Shown: positions 16,287 through 54,811 of the stretch, piece after piece
Layout: each line of letters begins with the position of its first letter
Numbering within the stretch: the stretch's first letter is position 1
Assembly (NCBI GenBank): GCA_963795085.1
Contig: CAWCFX010000003.1
Location: 192,001-256,000 of the forward strand
Length of the DNA stretch: 64,000 bases
Source of the DNA: an uncultured Gemmatimonadales bacterium
GTDB taxonomy: Bacteria; Gemmatimonadota; Gemmatimonadetes; Gemmatimonadales; GWC2-71-9
Reading direction: 5' to 3'
Position numbers and translations under genes: made by a program
The notes under the pieces: model-generated
Told to the model about the DNA's origin: nothing
What the model saw: only the letters and a program-made list of their open reading frames with translations
Databases searched by the model: none

Positions 16287-16357
16287 TGGCCCTTCGTCCA
16301 ATGGCAGGACAGCAGACTTTGGATCTGCGAATGGTGGTTCGAATCCACCAGGGCCAA
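16287..16357 (+). tRNA. tRNA-Gln (anticodon TTG); CCA not encoded
   Basis: Acceptor stem TGGCCCT/AGGGCCA; anticodon arm GCAGA-CTTTGGA-TCTGC; T arm GGTGG-TTCGAAT-CCACC. Confidence 0.97.
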
Positions 16358-45421: not shown

Positions 45422-45643
45422 TCAGGACGTGGGAGTCTTGGCCGGCTCGCTCTGATACTTGCGCCGGAACCGGTCCACCCGGCCCGCCGTGTCCACCAGC
45501 CGCTGCCGCCCGGTGAAGTAGGGATGGCACTTGGCGCAGACTTCCACGTGAATCGAAGGATTGGTGGAGCGGGTCTCGAACTCGTTCCCGCAGGCGCACT
45601 TCACCGTTACCTTCATGTACTTGGGATGCAGGTCCGGCTTCAC
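45422..45643 (-). CDS. rpmE: 50S ribosomal protein L31 (Zn-binding form)
   Basis: [31 protein letters not shown] start after GAGGAG. Confidence 0.97.
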
Positions 45644-45820
45644 GTTCGACTCCTCTTTCTTCGGAAACCCGTTAAACTGGCACAACGTGGGAAAAGCTGC
45701 CAGCCCAACAATTTAGCTCGTAGCCCCGAGGCAGGGCAAGCCTCGGTAGGCCAGCCCGGGAGAGTCCTCCGGACCGACCGGTGGTCGGGCCGGTGGCGGG
45801 GGCGCCCCCGAAGCGGCGAA

Positions 45821-45849
45821 TTGACACTGCAACATCTCGCAAGTAACGT
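45821..45849 (+). promoter_or_regulatory. sigma70 promoter of the Crp/Fnr gene
   Basis: TTGACA-N17-TAACGT. Confidence 0.75.
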
Positions 45850-45881
45850 ATTCACACAAACTTCCGACTGTGAGGGGCTCC

Positions 45882-46559
45882 GTGGCTCTTTCTCCACTAG
45901 ATGTGCTGAATCGGGTACCACTGTTCGAGAGTCTCCCCGAGAACGAGCTGGCGCATTTCGCCGAACTGACCCGGGAGAAGACCTACCCCAAGGGCAGCGT
46001 GATTCTCTTCGAAAATGACCGCGGGGATTCACTTTTCCTGGTTGCTTCCGGCCAGGTGAAGGTGGTCCTGATCGGCGAGGACGGCCGGGAGGTCATCCTG
46101 TCGGTACTCGGACCGGGGACCTTCTTTGGCGAGATGGCGCTGATCGACGATTCCCCCCGCTCCGCCCATGTCATCGCGATGGAGGATGCGACGCTCCTGG
46201 TGCTGAGGCGGGAGGATTTTCAGCAGCGGCTGCGCACCTCCCCCGAGGTGGCGATTGGGCTGTTGAGAGAGCTGTCGCGGCGGCTTCGCCGTGCCGACGA
46301 GAAGATCGGGAGCCTGGTGTTGCTGGACGTCAACGGCCGGGTGGCCGATCTGTTGCTCCGGGCTGCGGCGGAAGAGGGGGGCGAGCTGATTCGCCGCAAA
46401 CTGACGCATCACACCATCGCCCAGATGATCGGCTCCAGCCGGGAGACCGTTTCCCGGACCATGCGGGATTTCGTGGAGCGTGGGCTCATCACGGTGACCC
46501 GCAAGGACATAACCATCACGGACCGGCCCGCCCTCTTGGCCGCCGCCGGGCGTTCGTGA
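45882..46559 (+). CDS. Crp/Fnr-family transcriptional regulator (cNMP-binding)
   Basis: FFGEMAL...PRSA phosphate-binding cassette; HTH IAQMIGSSRETVSR; no FNR-type cysteines. Confidence 0.95.
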   Translation: MALSPLDVLNRVPLFESLPENELAHFAELTREKTYPKGSVILFENDRGDSLFLVASGQVKVVLIGEDGREVILSVLGPGTFFGEMALIDDSPRSAHVIAMEDATLLVLRREDFQQRLRTSPEVAIGLLRELSRRLRRADEKIGSLVLLDVNGRVADLLLRAAAEEGGELIRRKLTHHTIAQMIGSSRETVSRTMRDFVERGLITVTRKDITITDRPALLAAAGRS

Positions 46560-46593
46560 GGACACTCACCACCCGCAAGTGACCCTGCTCACA
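46555..46593. promoter_or_regulatory. Two tandem CRP-type boxes upstream of the MBL hydrolase operon
   Basis: CGTGA-ggacac-TCACC (46555-46570) and AGTGA-ccctgc-TCACA (46578-46593). Confidence 0.65.
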
Positions 46594-46644
46594 CGATTTC
46601 CGCCCTCCCGGGGCGGCACAGATCTCGCTAGCTGAGGTAGGCAA

Positions 46645-47517
46645 GTGACCTACACAATTACCTTCTGGGGCACCCGGGGTTCGATCCCGACGCCGGGACC
46701 GCACACGGCCCGTTACGGAGGTAATACGTCCTGTGTCGCAGTGGCCGGCGGCAAGGATGAGTTGGTCATCCTGGATGCCGGCAGCGGCATCCGCCCCCTC
46801 GGGCGAGAGCTGCACCGGATCGGGAATGGCAGCGGCGGCATGAGCGCGGATATCCTGGTTTCCCATACTCACTGGGATCACATTCAGGGATTGCCGTTCT
46901 TCCAGCCGCTCAACGTGAAAGGCAACTCGGTCCGGATCTACGGCTCCGCCCAGGAGGGCGTCGGCCTGGAAAGCATCCTCGACCGGCAGATGGACCCGAT
47001 GGTGTTTCCGATCCCGCTGCGCGCGCTGGCCGCGGAGCTCACGGTCACCGAAATCGCGGGCGGGGCGTTCGAAATCGACGGGTTCACGGTGGAAGCGTTT
47101 CGCCTGCGGCACCCGGGCACCACCCTCGGCTACAAGCTGGTGCCGGTGCGCGGCGGTCAGACCATGGCGTACCTGACGGACAACGAACTGGGTCCCGGCG
47201 GGAATTACGACGTCCCCGCAGACTGGCGGCAGCAACTGGTAAGATTTCTCGACGGCGTGCATACCCTGATTCACGACGGGATGTACTCCGAGGAACTGAT
47301 GGAACAACGGGCTGGCTGGGGCCATTCGACCCCGCAGCAGGCGGTGGACCTGGCGCATGAATGCGGTGCGGAACGGCTGATCATTTTCCACCACGAGCCG
47401 GAGCACGACGACGATACGATCGACCGCCTGGTCGCCGAGACCCGGCGCGATGCGAAGCACCTGGCGCCCCGCCTCGTGGTGGAGGCCGCCAGCGAAGGGA
47501 TGCACCTCAACCTCTAG
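46645..47517 (+). CDS. MBL-fold metallo-hydrolase (RNase Z/PhnP-like, possible phosphodiesterase)
   Basis: GTRGSIP, YGGNTSC, LDAGSG, SHTHWDH, HPG, TDNE, GWGHS, FHHEP. Confidence 0.92.
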   Translation: MTYTITFWGTRGSIPTPGPHTARYGGNTSCVAVAGGKDELVILDAGSGIRPLGRELHRIGNGSGGMSADILVSHTHWDHIQGLPFFQPLNVKGNSVRIYGSAQEGVGLESILDRQMDPMVFPIPLRALAAELTVTEIAGGAFEIDGFTVEAFRLRHPGTTLGYKLVPVRGGQTMAYLTDNELGPGGNYDVPADWRQQLVRFLDGVHTLIHDGMYSEELMEQRAGWGHSTPQQAVDLAHECGAERLIIFHHEPEHDDDTIDRLVAETRRDAKHLAPRLVVEAASEGMHLNL

Positions 47518-47529
47518 CGAGGAGTGGAT

Positions 47530-48219
47530 ATGCGCGGGACCATGCTGTTGGCGTTGGCTCTGACTGCCACGATGCCGGCGCTGGCCGAGGCCCAGGACAC
47601 CCGGCCCGGCATCGCGGTGATGCCGTTCCAGAACGGTGGGTCCTACGGGCGGGACAAGGAAGATTTCGACGCGCTCCAGGTCGGGATCCCGGCCATGGTC
47701 ATGAGCGAACTCGCCCAAAACCCGGGCGCCCGGGTGGTGGACCGGAGCGACATCAACCGGATTCTGGACGAGCAGAACCTGGCCACGGATGGCCGTGTGG
47801 ATGCCTCGACCGCCGCCCGGGTGGGCCGGCTGGTGGGCGCCCGCTACATGATCATGGGCACCTTCATCGACCACTACGGCAAGATGCGGATCGACGCCCG
47901 CATTGTGGACGTGGAGACCAGTGAGATCCTCAAGGTGGTGCAGTCGGGCCCCCGCGAGCGGGACAAGCTGTTCGACATGATCAGCGAACTGTCCACCTCC
48001 ATCATGGCCAACACCAAACTGCCACCGCTTCCGGTCCAGCAGGCCCAGGCCGAGCCGCGGCGGATTCCGACGGAGGCGCTGACCTTCTACAGCCGGGCCC
48101 TGCTCTATGAGGATCGGGGGGATGCGGCCAAGGCCGAGGAGTATTACAACCGGGCCCTGGAAGTCTTCCCGACCTACGCGGAAGCCCGCGAAGGGCTGCG
48201 AAAGATCCGGCCCTCCTGA
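47530..48219 (+). CDS. Secreted CsgG/HfaB/TolB-N-like domain protein with a C-terminal TPR
   Basis: Signal peptide ALAEA-Q; IAVMPFQN, VVDRSDI..ILDEQ, AARVGRLVGA, DARIVDVET; TPR AEEYYNRALEVFPTYAEA. Confidence 0.82.
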   Translation: MRGTMLLALALTATMPALAEAQDTRPGIAVMPFQNGGSYGRDKEDFDALQVGIPAMVMSELAQNPGARVVDRSDINRILDEQNLATDGRVDASTAARVGRLVGARYMIMGTFIDHYGKMRIDARIVDVETSEILKVVQSGPRERDKLFDMISELSTSIMANTKLPPLPVQQAQAEPRRIPTEALTFYSRALLYEDRGDAAKAEEYYNRALEVFPTYAEAREGLRKIRPS

Positions 48220-48223
48220 CCTC

Positions 48224-49003
48224 GTGAGCGCCCCGATTGCCGGGATCGGGCGCTCAACGGCGCGCTGGCTCGCCCGGATGGGCGCGCTGGCGCGTTTCGC
48301 GTTTGAGGCAGTGCGGGCCATCCCCACCCTGCCCGGCGCGGGCCGCCGGGTCGCGGGCCGCATCCTGCTCGACCAGGTCCGCTTTACCGCACTCGAGGCG
48401 GTCGGCCTGGTCGTCCTGTTGAGCGGCATCTTCAGTTTCCTGGTCATCAAGATGGCGGTGCGCGAGCTGGGTAACATCGGGGCCTACGACCTGATCGGCC
48501 GCCTGATCGTAGTGATCATCGTGCGGGAACTCGGCCCTATCCTCACTGCGCTGGCGGTGCTGGGCCGGAGCGGCACCGCGATCACCGCTGAGCTGGCCAC
48601 CAATACCGTGCTCCGCGAAGTGCGGGCCCTGGAAGGCATGGGCATCGACCCCTTTCACTACCTGGTACTGCCCCGGCTGGCCGGGTGCATCATCTCGGTC
48701 ACCGTGCTCATCGTGCTCTTCGACACCGTCTCGCTGACCAGCGGCTTTCTCGCCGCCGGCGCCGAGGGCATGAGCGGCGACCGCTACTGGGGGGTGGTCC
48801 TGGCGTCGCTCACGGCCCGCGACGTCGGGGTGACCTTCGGGAAGGGAATCCTCTTCGGGTTGGTGATCGGGTTGTGGCCCAGCTATCACGGACTGGCGGT
48901 GCGCCGGGGTCCCACGGAAATCCCCCAGGCCGTCATCCGGTCCACGGTCGGGGCCATCGTGATGATCTTCGTGGTCAGCGCCCTGTTCGTGGTGGTGCAA
49001 TGA
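48224..49003 (+). CDS. MlaE/YrbE-family ABC permease
   Basis: VRELGPILTAL...GRSGTAITAELA, EVRALEGMGIDP..YLVLPR, KGILFG. Confidence 0.93.
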   Translation: MSAPIAGIGRSTARWLARMGALARFAFEAVRAIPTLPGAGRRVAGRILLDQVRFTALEAVGLVVLLSGIFSFLVIKMAVRELGNIGAYDLIGRLIVVIIVRELGPILTALAVLGRSGTAITAELATNTVLREVRALEGMGIDPFHYLVLPRLAGCIISVTVLIVLFDTVSLTSGFLAAGAEGMSGDRYWGVVLASLTARDVGVTFGKGILFGLVIGLWPSYHGLAVRRGPTEIPQAVIRSTVGAIVMIFVVSALFVVVQ

Positions 49004-49692
49004 GCGGCCCCGACCTGTCGACCGCGCCGCTGGTGTTTCAAGGCATCACCACGACCGGCAGCGCCGCCGGGATCTTCGAGCTGGAGGTGCTGCCGCACCA
49101 GACGGTGGTCCTGGTCGGGGACGAGAACAGCGGGGTCGACAGCCTCTGCGAGTTCGCGCTGGGGCTGGAAACACCGGTGGCCGGGCAGGCCCTGGTCTTC
49201 GGCACCGCCATCGGCGCCCTTCCCCGCCGGGAGCAACTCGCCTTCCGCCGGCGTTTGGGATACCTTCCTGCCGGGGATGGACTGCTCAGCAACCTGAGCC
49301 TCCGGGACAACATCCGGCTGCCTCTCCGGTTCGGCAGCAACTTCAAACCAGACGAAATCGAAGGCCGGGTGGACGTCATCCTCGCGATACTGCGGCTGCA
49401 GCGGATCGCGGGGGAGCGCCCCGCCCAGGCCAATGAAGAGCAGCGCCGCCGGGCGGCGCTGGGCCGCGCGCTGGCGTTCGACCCCGACCTGGTCCTGCTG
49501 GAACAGCCCTTCGTAGGGCTCACCGACCGGGTGTCCGCCGAGTTGCTCGAAGTGGCCCGCGGCGGCGAAACCGCCGAGGGCGCCCGCCGCACCGTGTTCA
49601 TCACCGGACAGGGAATACCGATGCTCCTTCGCACCAGAGTGGAACAGGTGGTCCAGATGGCCGACAGCCGCCGGATGCCAAGCCGGGTATGA
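49000..49692 (+). CDS. MlaF-like ABC ATP-binding-fold protein with degenerate catalytic motifs
   Basis: Scaffold retained (RRRLGY, LLSNLSLRDNI.LPL, RALAFDPDLVLL, PFVGL); Walker A reads GDENSGVD, signature ANEEQ, Walker B LLEQP. Confidence 0.85.
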   Translation: MSGPDLSTAPLVFQGITTTGSAAGIFELEVLPHQTVVLVGDENSGVDSLCEFALGLETPVAGQALVFGTAIGALPRREQLAFRRRLGYLPAGDGLLSNLSLRDNIRLPLRFGSNFKPDEIEGRVDVILAILRLQRIAGERPAQANEEQRRRAALGRALAFDPDLVLLEQPFVGLTDRVSAELLEVARGGETAEGARRTVFITGQGIPMLLRTRVEQVVQMADSRRMPSRV

Positions 49693-50636
49693 TCGGCCAG
49701 CGCATGACCGACGTGATGATCGGCGCCCTGGTCGTCGGCGCCGTAGCCGTACTGGTCGGGGCCTTCGTGTTCACCAAGGGGTGGAACAAGCAGCAGTTCG
49801 ACCTCTTCATGCGCACCGAATCGGCCCGCGACCTTACCTCCGACACCAAGGTGTTGTTGCAGTCGCTCCCGGTCGGCGAAGTCAAGGCGATTTCGCCCCA
49901 GGTGGACTCCACCAGCGGCCGGCTCCGGTTCGTCGTGCACCTGCGCATCGACGAACGGTACCAGGACGGAACCGAACTCCATCTGCCGCTGGGCACCCGG
50001 GCCGAGATCGTCCAGTCCAACGTGCTGGGCGGCGTCAGCATTGAGTTGCGCACCCCGGAGCGGGCCATCGGCCGGCTGGCGCCGGGAGACACGGTGGGCT
50101 CGGCCCGGCTCTCTTCCGGGCTCGACGCGATCGCCCAGATTGCCGACTCGCTCCGGCAGCAGATCGCCCTGGTGCTGACCGATACCCGGTCGCTGATCGA
50201 GAACCTGAATTCCACGGTGGTGATGGCCCGGCGGGAACTGCAGCTCACGGCGCCCGAGGCCCGCGCCACGATGGACGAAATCCAGGCCTCCCTGACCCAG
50301 TTGCGACCCACGTTGGCCCGGGCCGATACCCTGATGGCCACCGCGACCGGCCGGATGGACGGGGTCAGCGACTCCATCGCCGCTACCCTGTCCCAGACCC
50401 GGACCATGATCGCCCACCTGGACAGTCTCGCGGTCACCGCCACGAGCATCGCGGGAGAGAACCGGGAGGTCGTCCGCACCACGGCCGAGAACCTCTACAT
50501 CATCTCCGCGAAGCTGGAACACTTCCTCGACCAGGTCAGCCGGCGCCCGCTCCGGATGATCTATGGCGTCCGCCCGCTGGCGGACAGCGCCCGCCGACCC
50601 GCCGAAAGCGGCGGGGAGACCGACACCGCGCCATGA
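49689..50636 (+). CDS. MCE/MlaD-family protein with a long helical C-terminus
   Basis: N-terminal TM; ARDL..DTKV....LPVGEV..I; NVLGGVSIEL; coiled coil; C-terminal RRPLRMIYG. Confidence 0.88.
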   Translation: MIGQRMTDVMIGALVVGAVAVLVGAFVFTKGWNKQQFDLFMRTESARDLTSDTKVLLQSLPVGEVKAISPQVDSTSGRLRFVVHLRIDERYQDGTELHLPLGTRAEIVQSNVLGGVSIELRTPERAIGRLAPGDTVGSARLSSGLDAIAQIADSLRQQIALVLTDTRSLIENLNSTVVMARRELQLTAPEARATMDEIQASLTQLRPTLARADTLMATATGRMDGVSDSIAATLSQTRTMIAHLDSLAVTATSIAGENREVVRTTAENLYIISAKLEHFLDQVSRRPLRMIYGVRPLADSARRPAESGGETDTAP

Positions 50637-52573
50637 AATACCGCCTGTTGCACACTTCCGGCTGGGACCCCGCGGGGGTCGGTGACGCCCTCGCCGCGGA
50701 ACAGGTGGAAACCGCCCTGTTTCCGGCAGCGCTGACCCCGGCGGCCGACGGGCTCCCCACCGTGCTGATCCTGGATCCCGAGGGCCGCCGTCTGCTGCCC
50801 GCCTCGCTGCTTGAATCACTCCGGGAAAACGGCACCCCGATCGTGGCACTGGGCGCCCCCGGCGAAGCGGACGTGCCCGGAGACCTGCCGGTGGACCTGC
50901 TGAGCGGGTTCGTGAAGGCGCCGGTGCCGCCGCGTGAGCTGCTGGTGGCGCTCCGCTCGGCGTACCGCGAGGCGGTGGCCCGGCAGGAGGCTGCCCGTGT
51001 CCGGAAGGAGATCGCCACCCGGACCCGCGAGGTCACCGAACTAGCCGAAATCGGGATCAAGCTCACCACCGAGAAGAACTACAACACCCTGCTGGACCTG
51101 ATCCTGTTTCAGGCCCGCCGGATCACCCAGTCGGACGCGGGCAGCCTGTACCTGGTCGAGATGGATGAGGCCGGCGTCCGCCGGCTCCGATTCAAGCTGA
51201 CCCAGAACGACAGCCGCCCCGATATCCCGTTCGTCGAGTTCACCATGCCGATCAACCATTCCAGCCTCGCGGGGTACGCGGCGGCGGAAGGGGAGCCGCT
51301 GGTGTTCAACGACGTGTACCTCCTGCCCCCGGACGTCGCCTACTCGTTCAACCGCTCGTTCGACGAGCGATACGGCTACCGCACCCGCTCCATGCTGGTG
51401 ATTCCCATGCAGAATCACAGCGGCGAGGTGATCGGCGTGGTGCAGCTGATCAATCGGAAGCAGGACCCGGCGCACAAACTGGAGACCCCCGCCGATACCG
51501 ACCGCTACGTGCAGCCGTACAGCCCCCACCTGGTCAAGCTGGTGCGCTCGCTGGCGGGCCAGGCCGCCGTGGCGCTGGAGAACAGCCAGCTATATGCCGA
51601 GATCGAGCGGCTGTTCGAGGGGTTCGTGCGGGCCGCGGTGACCGCGATCGAGCAACGGGACCCGACGACGTCCGGTCACTCGGAGCGGGTAGCCAACCTG
51701 ACGGTGGGACTGGCCCGGGTCGTGGACCGGGTGGACCAGGGTCCCTACCGGCTGGTCCGGTTCAATACCGAGCAGATCCGGGAGCTGCGCTATGCCGGAC
51801 TGCTGCACGACTTCGGGAAGGTCGGGGTCCGGGAAAAAGTGCTGGTCAAGGAGTACAAGCTCTACCCGGCGGACCTGACCCTGATCCGGCAGCGGCACGC
51901 CTTCCTGCTGCGTACCGCCCAGTGGGAATACGAGAAGGAACGAGTCCGCTACCTGGAAGAGAAGGGAACCAGCGGCTATCCCGGGTTCATGGAAGGGCTC
52001 AAGGCGCGGTTCGCGGAGGAGCAGGCCAACCTGGACCGATTTCTCTCCCTGGTCCACGATTCCAACCGGCCGACGGTGCTGGCCGAAGGGAACTTCGAGG
52101 CGCTCAAGGAGTTTGCCGACCGCAGCTACCAGGCGATCGACGGCACCTCCCTGCCCTTTCTCACCTCCGACGAGGTACGCTACCTGAGCATCCGGCGGGG
52201 AACCCTGGACGAACTGGAGCGGGTCGAGATCGAAAGCCACGTGAATCACACGTTTAATTTCCTGCGGGACATCCCCTGGACCCGGAACCTCAGCCGGGTA
52301 CCCGATATCGCCCACGGGCACCACGAAAAGCTGGACGGCAGCGGGTACCCCCGCAAGGTGGGCGCCACGGAAATCCCGGTGCAGACCCGGATGATGACCA
52401 TCAGCGACATCTTCGACGCGCTGACCGCGAAGGACCGGCCCTACAAGCGGGCAGTGCCGACGGACCGGGCGCTCGACATCATGAGTTCGGAGGTCAAAGG
52501 CGGGATGCTGGACCCGGAACTGTTCACGATGTTCGTGGAGGCGAAAGTGTTCGAGGAACAGGCAGAAGGATGA
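50633..52573 (+). CDS. GAF + HD-GYP cyclic-dinucleotide phosphodiesterase with a degenerate N-terminal REC-like domain
   Basis: GAF (AGSLYL, GYRTRSMLVIPM, IGVVQLINR); TSGHSERV, LLHDFGKVG, HHEKLDGSGYP, DIFDALTAKDRPYK. Confidence 0.93.
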   Translation: MKYRLLHTSGWDPAGVGDALAAEQVETALFPAALTPAADGLPTVLILDPEGRRLLPASLLESLRENGTPIVALGAPGEADVPGDLPVDLLSGFVKAPVPPRELLVALRSAYREAVARQEAARVRKEIATRTREVTELAEIGIKLTTEKNYNTLLDLILFQARRITQSDAGSLYLVEMDEAGVRRLRFKLTQNDSRPDIPFVEFTMPINHSSLAGYAAAEGEPLVFNDVYLLPPDVAYSFNRSFDERYGYRTRSMLVIPMQNHSGEVIGVVQLINRKQDPAHKLETPADTDRYVQPYSPHLVKLVRSLAGQAAVALENSQLYAEIERLFEGFVRAAVTAIEQRDPTTSGHSERVANLTVGLARVVDRVDQGPYRLVRFNTEQIRELRYAGLLHDFGKVGVREKVLVKEYKLYPADLTLIRQRHAFLLRTAQWEYEKERVRYLEEKGTSGYPGFMEGLKARFAEEQANLDRFLSLVHDSNRPTVLAEGNFEALKEFADRSYQAIDGTSLPFLTSDEVRYLSIRRGTLDELERVEIESHVNHTFNFLRDIPWTRNLSRVPDIAHGHHEKLDGSGYPRKVGATEIPVQTRMMTISDIFDALTAKDRPYKRAVPTDRALDIMSSEVKGGMLDPELFTMFVEAKVFEEQAEG

Positions 52574-53804
52574 ACAGTCCGGCGGCGAGTCCCAGGTAAA
52601 CCGGCAGGATCAGGGCGATGATCTCGAGGTTCACCTGGCCGAACCCGGGGAAAATCTTGAGGAGCAGACCCGCGACCGCGACCGCCGCGACCACGACGCT
52701 GGCCCGCAGGGCACTCCGTCCCCAGCCGCCGCCTCGCCGGATCCCCGCCGGGAGCAGAACGACCAGGGGGAGTGCCAGCAGGTTCAGTTGCAGCACGTTC
52801 TCGTTGGCCCGGGCCACCAGGTGGTCAGTAAATCCCCAGAGACCCAGCAGGATCAGGCCCCCCACACCCATCAGCAGGTACCAGAAGACCCCAAAAACGG
52901 TAAACGCGGTGCGGGCACCCCGCCGGCCGATGCCCAGACGGGCCAGCAGCAGGGCCAGCCCACCCAGCAGCGTGCCCGCCAGCAGGTATACGGGAACCCA
53001 GCCGGGCGGCTCGGCCCGGAACGTGTACACGTCGCTTTCGTAGACCGTCCGTTCCTCCCGGACCAGCGGCACCGGACGCCCACCGTTCCCCGGCACGGTC
53101 ACCTCGCGCAGGCGCTCCCGTACCTCCAGGGGCAGGAACATTTCCTCCCACGCGGAGATGGGGCGGTCCACGGGGTGGCCCATGCCGGCCTCGATCCCGG
53201 TGTACATGAAGGGGTTGTTGGTGGTAAGCCGGCGGGTGTGGGACCGGAAGGTGGCACCGTCATAGACGGTATCGGTACGGCCGCGCAGCATGCCGCCCAG
53301 CAGGCGGTCCAGTGCGTCCCGTACCCGGGTGGAACAGTTGTCAAGGTAGTAGTCGTAGCGGTAGAACTTGTTCTCGTCCCGGGCATTCCATTCCAGGAAC
53401 TCCTTCATCTCCCGCCGCTTGAGGGGCAGCAGATTGAGCTCCTGGATGTACACCGACCGGTGGCGCCGGTCCCGGTAGAAGCGGATGGTCGCGTCCGCAT
53501 CGGCCACATCCAGCCAGTAGACCATCCGTCCCTGTAGAAAATTGGTGACGAAGCCGGGCGCCGCGAAGTCGAAGGTGCCGTAGTTGTAGACCAGGTCGGT
53601 GCCCCGGGCCAGGTCCCGCACCCCGATGGCATTGTGGCCGAACCGCTCCCAGATCTCCGAGCCGACGCCCATGGTCATGACGTAGATCTGCAGTTCCGAC
53701 CCCGGCTCTCCCGGCTCGCCAGAGGCATCCTGGGCGTGGCCGGAAAGCGCCGCGACCGCCGCGAGGGTGACGCCCAGCAATCCCGCGCGAACCCCCAGGT
53801 TCAC
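52524..53804 (-). CDS. DUF4105 / Lnb-like (lipoprotein N-acyltransferase-like) membrane protein
   Basis: FGHNAI, YNYGTFDF, YRYDYYLDNCSTR, MFLP; four or five C-terminal TMs. Confidence 0.85.
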   Translation of the reverse strand: MNLGVRAGLLGVTLAAVAALSGHAQDASGEPGEPGSELQIYVMTMGVGSEIWERFGHNAIGVRDLARGTDLVYNYGTFDFAAPGFVTNFLQGRMVYWLDVADADATIRFYRDRRHRSVYIQELNLLPLKRREMKEFLEWNARDENKFYRYDYYLDNCSTRVRDALDRLLGGMLRGRTDTVYDGATFRSHTRRLTTNNPFMYTGIEAGMGHPVDRPISAWEEMFLPLEVRERLREVTVPGNGGRPVPLVREERTVYESDVYTFRAEPPGWVPVYLLAGTLLGGLALLLARLGIGRRGARTAFTVFGVFWYLLMGVGGLILLGLWGFTDHLVARANENVLQLNLLALPLVVLLPAGIRRGGGWGRSALRASVVVAAVAVAGLLLKIFPGFGQVNLEIIALILPVYLGLAAGLFILLPVPRTLSPPRTS

Positions 53805-54811
53805 AGGGTCACGTCCCGGCCATCGCTGGCAGAGCGGTAGATGGCGTCCAGCACCTTGTGCAGGGTGAGATGCTCGTCGAGCTCCGGCGGCCTGGCCTCC
53901 TTGTTGATCGCCGCGATGAAATGGGCCCACTCGGCGCGAAAGGACGCGTAGAAGGCGTTCTCGCGGCCGGCCGCACCGGTCGGAGCCACGTCGGTGGGGA
54001 CGCCGTGCAACTCCTTCCAGACGTGCATCGGGTTCACGCCGGCGGTCCCCTTGCTGCCCCGCAGGCCGACACCGAAGCGCTCCCCGGCTCCCACGTGGTG
54101 CCAGGTGACGTCCACGAAGATCGAGGTACCGTTCTCGCAGACGACAAAAGCGCTCCCGGATTGCTCGACCGCGCGGTCTTTGCCCCGGGTATCGAGGTTG
54201 GCACTGACCCGGACCGGCTTGGGCGTCCCGGCCAGCCAGAGGCCAAGGTCGAGGATCGACAGCCCCAGGTCGAGCATGGCACCGCCGCCGGATTGTTCCC
54301 GCCGCTGCCGCCAGCCCAGCTGGGCCCGGCTGGGCCGGAATACGTGCCAGCTGCCCCGCACGCTTTCGATCTGGCCCAGCTCGCCATTCTGGACGAAGCT
54401 GCGGACGATCTGCACGTCGGTCCGATAGCGGTGGTTCATGCCCACCATCACGATGCGGTTGCGCTTCTCGGCGGCCTTCATGATCCGCTGGACACTGGCC
54501 GTCGAAATGGCGACCGGCTTCTCAACCAGCACATGGAGGTTGGCCGACAGGGCCGCGAGGATGTGGGCTTCGTGGAGGTGGTTGGGGGTGCAGATGACGA
54601 CGGCGTCGAGGTGCTCGAACTGGAGCAGCTCGTCGATGTCGTCGAAGGCATCGGGGATCTGAAACCGGTCGGCCAGCGCCCGAGCCTTGAGCAGGTCGCT
54701 GTCGCAGATGGCCGCGACCTCTACGCCCTTGAGCTTCTTGAGGACCGGCAGATGACCTACCTGGGTGATGGCCCCCGCCCCGACGACTCCGATCTTCAAC
54801 TGTTCGGCCAC
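53801..54811 (-). CDS. Gfo/Idh/MocA-family oxidoreductase
   Basis: GVVGAG, ICTPNHLH, HVLVEKP, GGGAMLDLG. Confidence 0.93.
   Translation of the reverse strand: MAEQLKIGVVGAGAITQVGHLPVLKKLKGVEVAAICDSDLLKARALADRFQIPDAFDDIDELLQFEHLDAVVICTPNHLHEAHILAALSANLHVLVEKPVAISTASVQRIMKAAEKRNRIVMVGMNHRYRTDVQIVRSFVQNGELGQIESVRGSWHVFRPSRAQLGWRQRREQSGGGAMLDLGLSILDLGLWLAGTPKPVRVSANLDTRGKDRAVEQSGSAFVVCENGTSIFVDVTWHHVGAGERFGVGLRGSKGTAGVNPMHVWKELHGVPTDVAPTGAAGRENAFYASFRAEWAHFIAAINKEARPPELDEHLTLHKVLDAIYRSASDGRDVTL

What the first reader, a model, noticed from the sequence alone, without database searches (positions are those of the whole stretch)
49000..49692. ABC pseudo-ATPase: every catalytic motif altered in an intact, coupled ORF
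Seen: Walker A GxxGxGKS/T reads GDENSGVD (no Lys), the Q-loop reads GYLPA (no Gln), the LSGGQ signature reads ANEEQ, Walker B hhhhDEP reads LVLLEQP, and the H-switch reads FITGQ (no His). Scaffold segments and 4-nt overlaps with both neighbours are preserved, with no stops or frameshifts. Established: each change alone usually abolishes ABC ATP hydrolysis. Inference: it is kept as a non-catalytic subunit (adaptor, sensor, or heterodimer partner of an active MlaF encoded elsewhere) and is not a decaying pseudogene.
Basis: partly seen in the sequence, partly recalled or inferred. Interest (0 to 1): 0.78.

Follow-up and report, generated by a model that had tools for sequence, protein, structure and literature searches.

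The report
Conserved ATP-site-less MlaF-like transporter subunit
A soil bacterium of the order Gemmatimonadales keeps, inside an envelope lipid-transporter operon, a well-folded copy of the transporter's ATP motor that has lost every ATP-handling residue, so this machine probably works without burning ATP itself.

Summary
Window 49000..49692 (+) encodes a 230-aa ABC nucleotide-binding-domain homologue. Walker A, Q-loop, signature, Walker B and H-switch are all replaced, and it overlaps MlaE and MlaD by 4 nt each.

It is not a pseudogene:
- 94 distinct orthologues keep the replacement residues. None has the Walker A Lys, and Glu147 is in 94 of 94.
- dN/dS is 0.06-0.23, like the neighbouring MlaE.
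- The former motif positions are more conserved than the rest of the protein.

The family was found only in two Gemmatimonadales families (58 of 401 phylum genomes sampled). MlaE, the dead NBD and MlaD form a trio that is present or absent as a unit. It sits inside a conserved cluster: Crp-like regulator, Crp-type palindrome, MBL-fold protein, CsgG/TPR protein, [trio], REC-like-GAF-HD-GYP phosphodiesterase. The genome also has two canonical MlaE-MlaF-MlaD operons.

Best reading: a selected, non-catalytic cytoplasmic cap of an ATP-independent MCE envelope module. What the cap does is not settled.

I found no paper describing it. This scan had already noted the same family on other genomes.

The parts
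45870..46559 (+). Crp/Fnr-type regulator (cNMP-binding domain plus HTH_Crp_2), first gene of the conserved cluster
   Evidence: Pfam hits. It is syntenic in 68 of 80 related loci; I did not check whether the 12 without it are cut by contig ends.
46556..46569 (.). GTGA-N6-TCAC palindrome 1, a Crp-type half-site pair that overlaps the crp stop codon
   Evidence: Read from the sequence. The pattern occurs in 52 of 67 distinct Crp-MBL intergenic regions, against 66 occurrences in all 606,290 bases of those loci.
46579..46592 (.). GTGA-N6-TCAC palindrome 2 (aGTGAccctgcTCACa)
46645..47517 (+). MBL-fold protein (Lactamase_B_2), function unknown
   Evidence: Pfam. PDB gives only weak RNase Z/ElaC matches. 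Syntenic in 70 of 80 loci.
47524..48219 (+). Secreted CsgG/LpoB-like plus TPR protein
   Evidence: Pfam. Syntenic in 72 of 80 loci. It is kept in the clusters that lack the trio.
48224..49003 (+). MlaE-type permease. The likely start is GTG 48224, 4 nt after the upstream stop. The longest ORF starts at 48107.
   Evidence: Pfam MlaE 2.8e-51. Start reasoning.
49000..49692 (+). The finding: a 230-aa ABC NBD homologue without ATP-site motifs (pseudo-NBD, protein P0001)
49117..49140 (+). Former Walker A, GDENSGVD
   Evidence: Among 94 sequences the Lys column reads V75 I10 L8 and one gap, with no Lys.
49258..49272 (+). Former Q-loop, GYLPA, at the start of the most conserved block of the protein (residues 80-113)
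49429..49443 (+). Former signature, ANEEQ
   Evidence: Glu147 is present in 94 of 94 sequences.
49489..49509 (+). Former Walker B, LVLLEQP
   Evidence: The catalytic-Glu column reads Q56 E14 D14.
49597..49611 (+). Former H-switch, FITGQ
   Evidence: The His column reads Q70, with His in 2 of 94.
49689..50636 (+). MCE protein: N-terminal TM helix, one MlaD/MCE domain and a long C-terminal helical part
   Evidence: Pfam MlaD. NCBIfam 'MCE family protein' matches residues 12-286, below its cut-off.
50633..52573 (+). REC-like, GAF and HD-GYP phosphodiesterase. Its start overlaps the MlaD stop by 4 nt.
   Evidence: Pfam GAF, HD and HD_5. Best PDB match 4mcw; HDFGK and HHEKLDGSGYP are present. The N-terminal 124 aa fold like a receiver domain.

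Best explanation
P0001 is the NBD-position subunit of a third Mla/MCE-type module (MlaE, pseudo-NBD, MlaD) in this Gemmatimonadales genome. It keeps the ABC fold and the surface that docks onto the permease, but its nucleotide pocket has been remodelled so that it can neither bind nor hydrolyse ATP.

Shown here:
- The gene is real and intact.
- It is under purifying selection, and its altered motifs are conserved.
- It is gained or lost only together with MlaE and MlaD.
- The trio sits in an operon-like cluster, preceded by a Crp-type site, that ends in a REC-like-GAF-HD-GYP gene.

Inferred:
- Two copies sit on the MlaE dimer as a fixed cytoplasmic cap in place of an ATP-driven clamp.
- The MlaE2-MlaD6 assembly therefore works without an ATP cycle of its own, as a passive or gated conduit for hydrophobic envelope molecules. 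The MCE systems LetAB and PqiABC do this with non-ABC membrane parts.
- The conserved acidic pocket (Asp41/Glu42, Glu146/Glu147) now serves as a subunit interface or a new binding site, not as an ATP site.
For: Fold and homology:
- Pfam ABC_tran 39.2 bits, PDB hits to 1.2e-16.
- AF2 mean pLDDT 89.6, and Foldseek TM about 0.8 to LolD and MlaF.

Motif loss:
- Shown, and in 94 distinct orthologues. The Lys column has no Lys, Glu147 is in 94 of 94, and the His column has His in 2 of 94.
- MlaF K47R alone gives no ATPase activity and no complementation (PMC5016091, passages).

Selection:
- dN/dS of the NBD is 0.059, 0.232 and 0.133 in three pairs with dS below 0.6. MlaE gives 0.091, 0.010 and 0.138, and MlaD gives 0.122, 0.241 and 0.178.
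- The 29 former motif positions have a mean top-residue fraction of 0.79, against 0.69 for the other 182 core positions. Only 175 of 10,000 random position sets reach this value.
- The most conserved block is residues 80-113. This is the Q-loop and the start of the helical subdomain, the region that meets the coupling helix in ABC transporters (general knowledge; the MlaE coupling helix is stated in PMC7790496).

Unit behaviour:
- Gene order is MlaE, NBD, MlaD in all 19 other loci and in the 80 loci (MlaE 78, MlaD 77; the missing ones lie at contig ends).
- In 7 of 8 loci fetched from relatives without the NBD, the CsgG/TPR gene is followed directly by the HD-GYP gene, and all three trio genes are missing.

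Active paralogues exist: two canonical MlaE-MlaF-MlaD operons.
Against: - No biochemical test was done. ATP binding by an unusual mode cannot be excluded from sequence.
- 14 of 94 orthologues have Glu at the catalytic-base column and 2 of 94 have His at the H-switch, though none has the Walker A Lys.
- I did not model the dimer or the MlaE contact, so 'fixed cap' is inference.
- The trio has been lost repeatedly. At least 5 changes are forced on the HD-GYP tree, and both MlaE and the NBD are frameshifted in one genome. Its function is therefore dispensable in many lineages.
- A passive conduit does not explain why the former pocket residues are so strictly conserved.
Confidence: 0.5

Rival explanations
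1. Signal transducer. The MCE/MlaE part senses an envelope lipid or envelope stress, and the pseudo-NBD passes the conformational change to the co-encoded REC-like-GAF-HD-GYP enzyme, for instance by docking its receiver-like domain. The trio would then be an input device for c-di-GMP turnover, not a transporter.
For: - The HD-GYP gene overlaps the MlaD stop by 4 nt.
- It follows the trio in 72 of 80 loci, and the 8 loci without it all stop at a contig end.
- Its HD and GYP motifs are intact.
- Its N-terminal 124 aa form a receiver-like fold with no Pfam match and without the usual acidic pair after strand 1. Such a domain could be a docking module.
- The cluster also holds a cNMP-binding regulator and a conserved Crp-type site.
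Against: - Orthologues of the HD-GYP protein, the REC-like part included, occur with Crp, MBL and CsgG/TPR but without the trio in 5 family-f1 loci. The enzyme therefore does not need the trio.
- Gene adjacency inside one operon also fits simple co-expression.
Confidence: 0.2
2. New ligand site. The remodelled pocket binds something other than ATP, such as a divalent cation, a cyclic nucleotide or another small molecule, and that ligand closes or opens the NBD dimer. Transport would then be gated by the ligand, not driven by ATP.
For: - The former motif positions are more conserved than the rest of the protein.
- The new residues are specific and nearly invariant: Glu42 in 89 of 94, Ser44 in 87 of 94, Gly45 in 92 of 94, Glu147 in 94 of 94.
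- The cluster is rich in cyclic-nucleotide parts.
Against: - No known binding motif was tested or found.
- An acidic pocket argues against nucleotide phosphates unless a metal bridges them.
- The same conservation would be expected for a protein-protein interface.
Confidence: 0.15
3. Borrowed motor. The pseudo-NBD pairs on MlaE with one of the two canonical MlaF proteins encoded elsewhere, or is exchanged for it, so that ATP still drives the complex.
For: - Two canonical MlaF genes are present in the genome.
- In mycobacteria one ATPase, MceG, serves several Mce permease sets (abstract of PMC9947336, seen in the listing).
Against: - MlaE is one gene, so the dimer offers two identical docking sites with nothing to impose a 1:1 mix.
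- In a head-to-tail dimer each ATP site uses Walker A of one subunit and the signature of the other. A mixed dimer would therefore have no complete site (general ABC knowledge).
- The Mce operons that borrow MceG carry no NBD gene of their own, whereas this one keeps its own under selection.
Confidence: 0.1
4. Decaying pseudogene or annotation artefact in a G+C-rich genome.
For: - Many spurious long ORFs exist in this region on both strands.
- In one relative, G163, both MlaE and the NBD are split by frame changes.
Against: - The frame is intact in 57 of the 58 phylum matches. The match in G163 covers only residues 8-157 and proved to be split by a frame change.
- dN/dS is 0.06-0.23.
- 94 distinct orthologues share the replacement motifs.
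- The fold prediction is confident.
Confidence: 0.02

Closest known systems
MlaFEDB phospholipid ABC transporter of E. coli, A. baumannii and P. aeruginosa (PDB 6xbd, 7d06, 7ch8)
   Same: It has an MlaE-type permease, an NBD-fold subunit and an MCE protein encoded together. The model superposes on MlaF with TM about 0.8.
   Different: - MlaF is an active ATPase and K47R kills it (PMC5016091). Here every motif is replaced.
- There is no STAS (MlaB) gene in the cluster.
- The protein is shorter at the C-terminus than the canonical paralogues.
- The NCBIfam MlaF equivalog scores 52.3 bits against a cut-off of 441.
Long-MCE ABC systems: P. aeruginosa PA3211-PA3214, mycobacterial Mce1/Mce4 with MceG, Veillonella MlaEFD
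   Same: The MCE protein has one MCE domain followed by a long helical part. NCBIfam 'MCE family protein' matches residues 12-286. This is the architecture described for PA3213 and Mce1 (PMC13631591, abstract and passages).
   Different: - Those systems are drawn with a working ATPase (PA3212, MceG).
- No PqiC-like lipoprotein gene was seen here.
- The neighbouring periplasmic protein is CsgG/LpoB-like with TPR repeats.
LetAB and PqiABC, MCE systems without an ABC ATPase
   Same: They are the precedent for MCE-based envelope transport with no ATPase of its own. PMC13631591 states that the inner-membrane part may be an ABC transporter or a LetA-like protein.
   Different: Their membrane parts are LetA/PqiA proteins. 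Here the permease is MlaE (Pfam) and an NBD-fold subunit is retained.
Degenerate-site NBDs of heterodimeric ABC transporters (CFTR NBD1, Pdr5 NBD1, PatAB; listings and abstracts, otherwise recalled)
   Same: Natural ABC domains with non-consensus catalytic motifs that are kept by selection.
   Different: - Those keep the Walker A Lys and bind ATP at one degenerate site, and they pair with a consensus site (recalled).
- Here the Lys is absent in 94 of 94 sequences, and no second NBD gene lies in the cluster.
GAF-HD-GYP c-di-GMP phosphodiesterase PmGH (PDB 4mcw) and REC-HD-GYP enzymes such as RpfG
   Same: The last gene of the cluster matches 4mcw at 3.7e-30 and has HD and GYP motifs. It has a receiver-like N-terminal fold.
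   Different: - About 130 extra residues (421-549) lie between the two matched parts of the HD-GYP domain.
- The receiver-like part has no Pfam match.
- I know of no reported link to an MCE module. My search for MCE, MlaE and HD-GYP listed no paper holding all three (12 of 93 listed).

Membership tests
ABC transporter nucleotide-binding domain (Pfam PF00005 ABC_tran) | Sequence match above the curated cut-off | tested here: met
   39.2 bits against a cut-off of 25, residues 28-171.
ABC transporter nucleotide-binding domain (Pfam PF00005 ABC_tran) | RecA-like core plus helical subdomain fold | tested here: met
   AF2 mean pLDDT 89.6. Foldseek top hits are LolD, MlaF, FtsE and MacB, with E about 1e-19 to 1e-17 and TM 0.75-0.83.
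ABC transporter nucleotide-binding domain (Pfam PF00005 ABC_tran) | Walker A GxxGxGK[ST] | tested here: not met
   Reads GDENSGVD. No Lys in any of 94 orthologues.
ABC transporter nucleotide-binding domain (Pfam PF00005 ABC_tran) | Q-loop Gln | tested here: not met
   Ala91. The column reads A84 V3 Q3 L2 S1 I1.
ABC transporter nucleotide-binding domain (Pfam PF00005 ABC_tran) | Signature LSGGQ | tested here: not met
   Reads ANEEQ. The Ser column reads N69 T15 S8 D2, the first Gly column reads E62 A18 D11 Q2 P1, and the second Gly column is Glu in 94 of 94.
ABC transporter nucleotide-binding domain (Pfam PF00005 ABC_tran) | Walker B hhhhD followed by the catalytic Glu | tested here: not met
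   Reads LVLL-E-Q. The Asp column is Glu in 83 of 94. The Glu column reads Q56 E14 D14.
ABC transporter nucleotide-binding domain (Pfam PF00005 ABC_tran) | H-switch His | tested here: not met
   Gln204. His occurs in 2 of 94.
ABC transporter nucleotide-binding domain (Pfam PF00005 ABC_tran) | ATP binding and hydrolysis | not testable with these tools
   Needs a purified protein or complex.
MlaF (ATPase subunit of Mla systems) | Encoded next to MlaE and MlaD | tested here: met
   4-nt overlaps with both. The same order is found in all related loci with room for the neighbours.
MlaF (ATPase subunit of Mla systems) | Match to the NCBIfam MlaF equivalog above its cut-off | tested here: not met
   NF008809 scores 52.3 bits against a cut-off of 441. 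All 25 listed NCBIfam hits, of 83 matched, are below their cut-offs.
MlaF (ATPase subunit of Mla systems) | Nearest intact relatives are MlaF-type | tested here: inconclusive
   - Profile search: the tandem-NBD hits read (P0123, P0128) carry LSGGMRKR and EPTTGLDP, like the genome's own MlaF.
- In the rough tree the two canonical MlaF sit far from the family, and the deep nodes are unsupported.
MlaF (ATPase subunit of Mla systems) | STAS partner (MlaB) and a C-terminal extension that binds it | tested here: not met
   No STAS domain in the neighbouring genes. The protein ends 25-60 residues before the canonical paralogues.
Degenerate-site NBD of a heterodimeric ABC transporter | Walker A Lys kept (ATP still bound) and a second, consensus NBD encoded with it | tested here: not met
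   No Lys in 94 of 94. Only one NBD gene lies in the cluster.
ATPase-free MCE systems (LetAB, PqiABC) | LetA/PqiA-type membrane partner | tested here: not met
   The permease is MlaE, PF02405 at 2.8e-51.

The most novel reading that the evidence does not exclude
The pseudo-NBD pair is a clamp worked by a ligand or a partner protein instead of ATP. This would turn an Mla/MCE ABC transporter into an ATP-independent envelope conduit or sensor, switched by cyclic-nucleotide signalling through Crp control of the operon and cross-talk with the co-encoded REC-like-GAF-HD-GYP enzyme. It would be an ABC transporter rebuilt as a second-messenger-linked device.
Probability: 0.2. Interest if true: 0.85.

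Novelty: new variant of a known kind. Interest (0 to 1): 0.68.

Why it matters
ABC transporters are defined by ATP-driven closing of two NBDs. This is a homodimer-type ABC module in which both NBDs have lost all five catalytic motifs, and probably the A-loop too, yet they stay under selection. That poses a clear question: what does an ABC permease do when its clamp cannot use ATP?

It bears on the open debate about how MCE systems move lipids, whether actively, passively, and in which direction. It offers a natural 'dead-motor' complex for structural work. It also links an envelope lipid module to cyclic-nucleotide and c-di-GMP genes.

The representative search shows many other MlaF-like proteins with partly or fully degenerate motifs, so the phenomenon may be broad.

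Tried and rejected
- **Complex prediction** of the pseudo-NBD (A1) with the REC-like domain (A2): no verdict, score 0.00 in two runs. It says nothing either way.
- **The look-up of sequencing runs**, kind rna: no RNA holder listed.
Their taxa remain unknown to me.
- **Pfam on the first 146 aa of the HD-GYP protein** at E up to 10: no family.
- **Promoter and terminator scan of 45500-53000**: no promoter-like site and two terminator-like sites, fewer than in shuffles. This is uninformative.
- **Pseudogene reading**: rejected.
- **Motif resemblance to c-di-GMP binders**: from memory, the conserved RLGYLPAGDGLL stretch resembles c-di-GMP-binding motifs. The same stretch derives from the ordinary ABC Q-loop region, and I ran no test, so I make no claim.
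- **Literature**: six full-text searches found no paper on a motif-less MlaF-like subunit. Only open-access PMC papers and bioRxiv were searched, and no supplements were read.
- **Veillonella Mla phylogenomics paper** (PMC10665443, term search only): no occurrence of 'Gemmatimon' or 'degenerat'.
Full report
**1. The observation**

Window 49000..49692 (+) is an intact 230-codon frame. Its ATG shares the string ATGA with the stop of the upstream MlaE gene (49000-49003). Its TGA shares ATGA with the start of the downstream MlaD gene (49689-49692).

| Motif | Canonical | Here |
|---|---|---|
| Walker A | GxxGxGK[ST] | GDENSGVD |
| Q-loop | Gln | Ala91 (GYLPA) |
| Signature | LSGGQ | ANEEQ |
| Walker B | hhhhDE | LVLLEQ |
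| H-switch | His | Gln204 (FITGQ) |

In one search the A-loop aromatic column is also a gap or Thr, and the D-loop SGLD reads VGLT.

The protein is nevertheless a real ABC domain. Pfam ABC_tran scores 39.2 bits against a cut-off of 25. In the PDB, 254 distinct sequences match at E up to 0.01, and the best is 1.2e-16. The AlphaFold2 model has mean pLDDT 89.6, and Foldseek puts LolD and MlaF on top with TM about 0.8.

**2. Genomic setting**

The window is contig C3:192001-256000 of a 3.89-Mb genome. Names on close homologues and titles of related records place it in the Gemmatimonadales.

The genome has three MlaE loci. The two on C6 and C4 carry canonical MlaF genes with GxSGTGKS, LSGGMRKR, LYDEPT and VTHD. 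So an active mlaF paralogue exists twice, and the finding belongs to a third module.

**3. Not a pseudogene**

Distribution:
- Orthologues with E of 2.9e-48 or better occur in 20 of 41 related genomes. The counts are own genus 5 of 5, other genera of family f1 7 of 20, family f3 8 of 8, and family f2 0 of 8. The next-best hits are at 4e-21 or worse. That tally includes the unpublished genome G018, which has no orthologue.
- In an even sample of the phylum, 58 of 401 genomes have a match at E of 1e-25 or better: f1 52 of 165 plus G000, f3 5 of 5, and none in the ten other families, including f2 at 0 of 94.
- A pattern scan of one genome per GTDB species found 173 relatives among 193 pattern matches. 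The best 80 all carry Gemmatimonadota, Gemmatimonadales, Gemmatimonadaceae or Gemmatimonadetes titles. The other 93 were not shown to me.

Motif columns in 94 distinct orthologue sequences, drawn from 100 loci:
- Walker A Lys column: V75 I10 L8 and one gap.
- Glu42 in 89 of 94, Ser44 in 87, Gly45 in 92.
- Second signature Gly column: Glu in 94 of 94.
- Catalytic-Glu column: Q56 E14 D14.
- His column: Q70, with His in 2.

The 29 former motif positions are more conserved than the other 182 core positions (mean top-residue fraction 0.79 against 0.69). Only 175 of 10,000 random sets of the same size reach that value. The motifs were therefore replaced, not eroded.

Nei-Gojobori dN/dS from my own script:

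| Pair (dS below 0.6) | NBD | MlaE | MlaD |
|---|---|---|---|
| 1 | 0.059 | 0.091 | 0.122 |
| 2 | 0.232 | 0.010 | 0.241 |
| 3 | 0.133 | 0.138 | 0.178 |

Pairs that include the window's own gene give 0.11-0.18 for the NBD (one search agrees).

**4. The trio is a unit inside a signalling cluster**

All 19 other loci show CsgG/TPR, MlaE, NBD, MlaD and the start of a GAF-HD gene in that order, where the flanks allow.

In the 80 loci with 4-kb flanks the hit counts are NBD 80, MlaE 78, MlaD 77, CsgG/TPR 72, REC-GAF-HD 72, MBL-fold 70 and Crp-like 68. The loci without MlaE, MlaD or the HD-GYP gene all end at a contig edge.

A GTGA-N6-TCAC palindrome lies in 52 of 67 distinct Crp-MBL intergenic regions. 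There are only 66 occurrences in all 606,290 bases of these loci. The window has two, at 46556-46569 (this one contains the crp stop codon) and at 46579-46592.

The last gene encodes GAF plus HD-GYP. Its best PDB match is 4mcw at 3.7e-30, and HDFGK and HHEKLDGSGYP are present. Its first 124 residues have no Pfam match. They fold confidently (pLDDT 89.7) into a receiver-like domain; Foldseek lists StyR, MtrA and CpxR at E about 1e-5 to 1e-4. Asp48 at the end of strand 3 is nearly invariant, but the position after strand 1 is a conserved His instead of the usual acidic pair. The residue correspondence is my inference.

**5. Presence and absence of the trio**

Orthologues of the HD-GYP protein occur in 29 of 41 relatives. 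That is all 20 genomes with the pseudo-NBD plus 9 without it, G018 included.

I fetched 8 of those 9 loci. In 7 of them the order is Crp, MBL, CsgG/TPR, HD-GYP, with no MlaE, NBD or MlaD. Only 53-252 bases lie between the CsgG/TPR and HD-GYP matches in the five family-f1 loci. The eighth locus is cut by a contig end.

I then built a tree of the HD-GYP protein with 87 rows, 8 of them trio-less. The trio-bearing rows were chosen through the NBD, so the proportions are not representative. On it:
- The five f1 trio-less rows sit singly inside trio-bearing clades.
- The three f2 rows form their own clade.
- Parsimony needs 6 changes, and well-supported branches force at least 5.

The simplest reading is an old trio lost repeatedly as a block. 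The tree is unrooted, so gains are not excluded.

One single-contig genome (G163) has the full cluster, but frame changes interrupt both MlaE and the NBD. This is either decay in progress or assembly error.

**6. Mechanism**

Shown: a selected, motif-less NBD-fold protein that travels with MlaE and MlaD.

Inferred:
- It cannot use ATP. The Lys and the Ser/Thr of the P-loop are gone and acidic residues line the pocket. In E. coli MlaF the milder K47R change gives no ATPase activity and no complementation (PMC5016091, passages read).
- It still docks on MlaE. Its most conserved block (residues 80-113) is the Q-loop and helical-subdomain region, which in ABC transporters meets the coupling helix. 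MlaE has such a helix between TM2 and TM3 (PMC7790496, passage).

I therefore favour a fixed cytoplasmic cap on an ATP-independent MCE module (confidence 0.5). The rivals are:
- Signal transfer to the HD-GYP enzyme (0.2). The trio-less clusters weaken this.
- A new ligand in the remodelled pocket (0.15).
- Pairing with a canonical MlaF (0.1). The single MlaE gene and the head-to-tail site geometry argue against this.
- A pseudogene (0.02).

A complex prediction of the NBD with the receiver-like domain gave no verdict (see Tried and rejected).

**7. Comparison with what is known**

The module works like, and is built like, an Mla/MCE ABC system with a long MCE protein. NCBIfam 'MCE family protein' matches residues 12-286, below its cut-off, as described for PA3213 and Mce1 (PMC13631591, abstract and passages).

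Membership differs by family:
- It belongs to the ABC NBD fold family.
- It fails all five catalytic-motif tests.
- It falls far below the NCBIfam MlaF cut-off (52.3 against 441).
- It lacks the STAS partner.
- It differs from the degenerate-site NBDs of heterodimeric transporters, which (recalled) keep the Walker A Lys and bind ATP.
- It differs from LetAB and PqiABC, which have no NBD at all.

**8. Wider picture**

A profile search of 1.84 billion representatives gave 44 hits at E of 1e-30 or better.

I scored the 65 single-domain, full-length representatives among 149 of the top hits for five intact motifs:

| Intact motifs | Representatives |
|---|---|
| 0 | 10 (3 belong to this family) |
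| 1 | 19 |
| 2 | 18 |
| 3 | 7 |
| 4 | 6 |
| 5 | 5 |

The profile favours such sequences, and the H-switch column is aligned least surely.

In a quick tree the Gemmatimonadales family is one clade (SH-aLRT 99) on a long stem, and the other motif-less groups lie elsewhere. The deep nodes are unsupported. Their taxa could not be looked up.

**9. Novelty and earlier notes**

Six full-text searches found no paper on a motif-less MlaF-like subunit. Only open-access papers and preprints were searched, and no supplements were read.

This scan had already noted the same family on at least eight other genomes, and similar dead MlaF-like subunits in other phyla. I re-tested those claims here on this window. 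The findings I did not see in the summaries shown to me are the block-wise presence or absence of the trio inside the conserved cluster, the higher conservation of the former motif positions, and the frameshifted copy.

**Verdict.** A new variant of a known kind, interest 0.68.

Noticed in passing
window 46556-46569 and 46579-46592: Two GTGA-N6-TCAC palindromes lie between the crp-like gene and the MBL-fold gene. The first contains the crp stop codon. The pattern is present in 52 of 67 distinct orthologous intergenic regions. This suggests the whole cluster is under the neighbouring cNMP-binding regulator.
   Followed up: partly
L114, L115, L116, L117, L119, L120, L121: Relatives without the pseudo-NBD keep Crp, MBL, CsgG/TPR and HD-GYP in the same order, but MlaE, NBD and MlaD are cleanly absent. 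On the HD-GYP tree the absence is scattered, with at least 5 changes.
   Followed up: yes
L135 3846-5253 (G163): In one single-contig genome both MlaE and the pseudo-NBD are split by a frame change, while the five neighbouring genes are intact. This is either real decay of the trio or assembly error.
   Followed up: partly
window 50633-51004: The first 124 residues of the HD-GYP protein fold like a receiver domain but match no Pfam family. They have a conserved His where receivers carry the acidic pair. In the f2 trio-less loci the match to this protein starts only at residue 70-73.
   Followed up: partly
window 51893-52279: About 130 residues (421-549) lie between the two parts of the HD-GYP domain that match PDB 4mcw. 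This is an insertion of unknown role.
   Followed up: no
proteins P0146, P0174, P0209, P0213, P0231, P0268, P0269: These are other MlaF-like representatives from public metagenomes with none of the five motifs intact. They lie outside the Gemmatimonadales clade in a rough tree.
   Followed up: partly
window 52524-53930 (-): A 468-aa membrane-protein ORF lies convergent to the cluster. It is conserved next to the cluster in only 28 of 80 loci. I did not annotate it.
   Followed up: no
window 16287-16357 (+): A tRNA gene, the only Rfam match in the window at gathering threshold.
   Followed up: no
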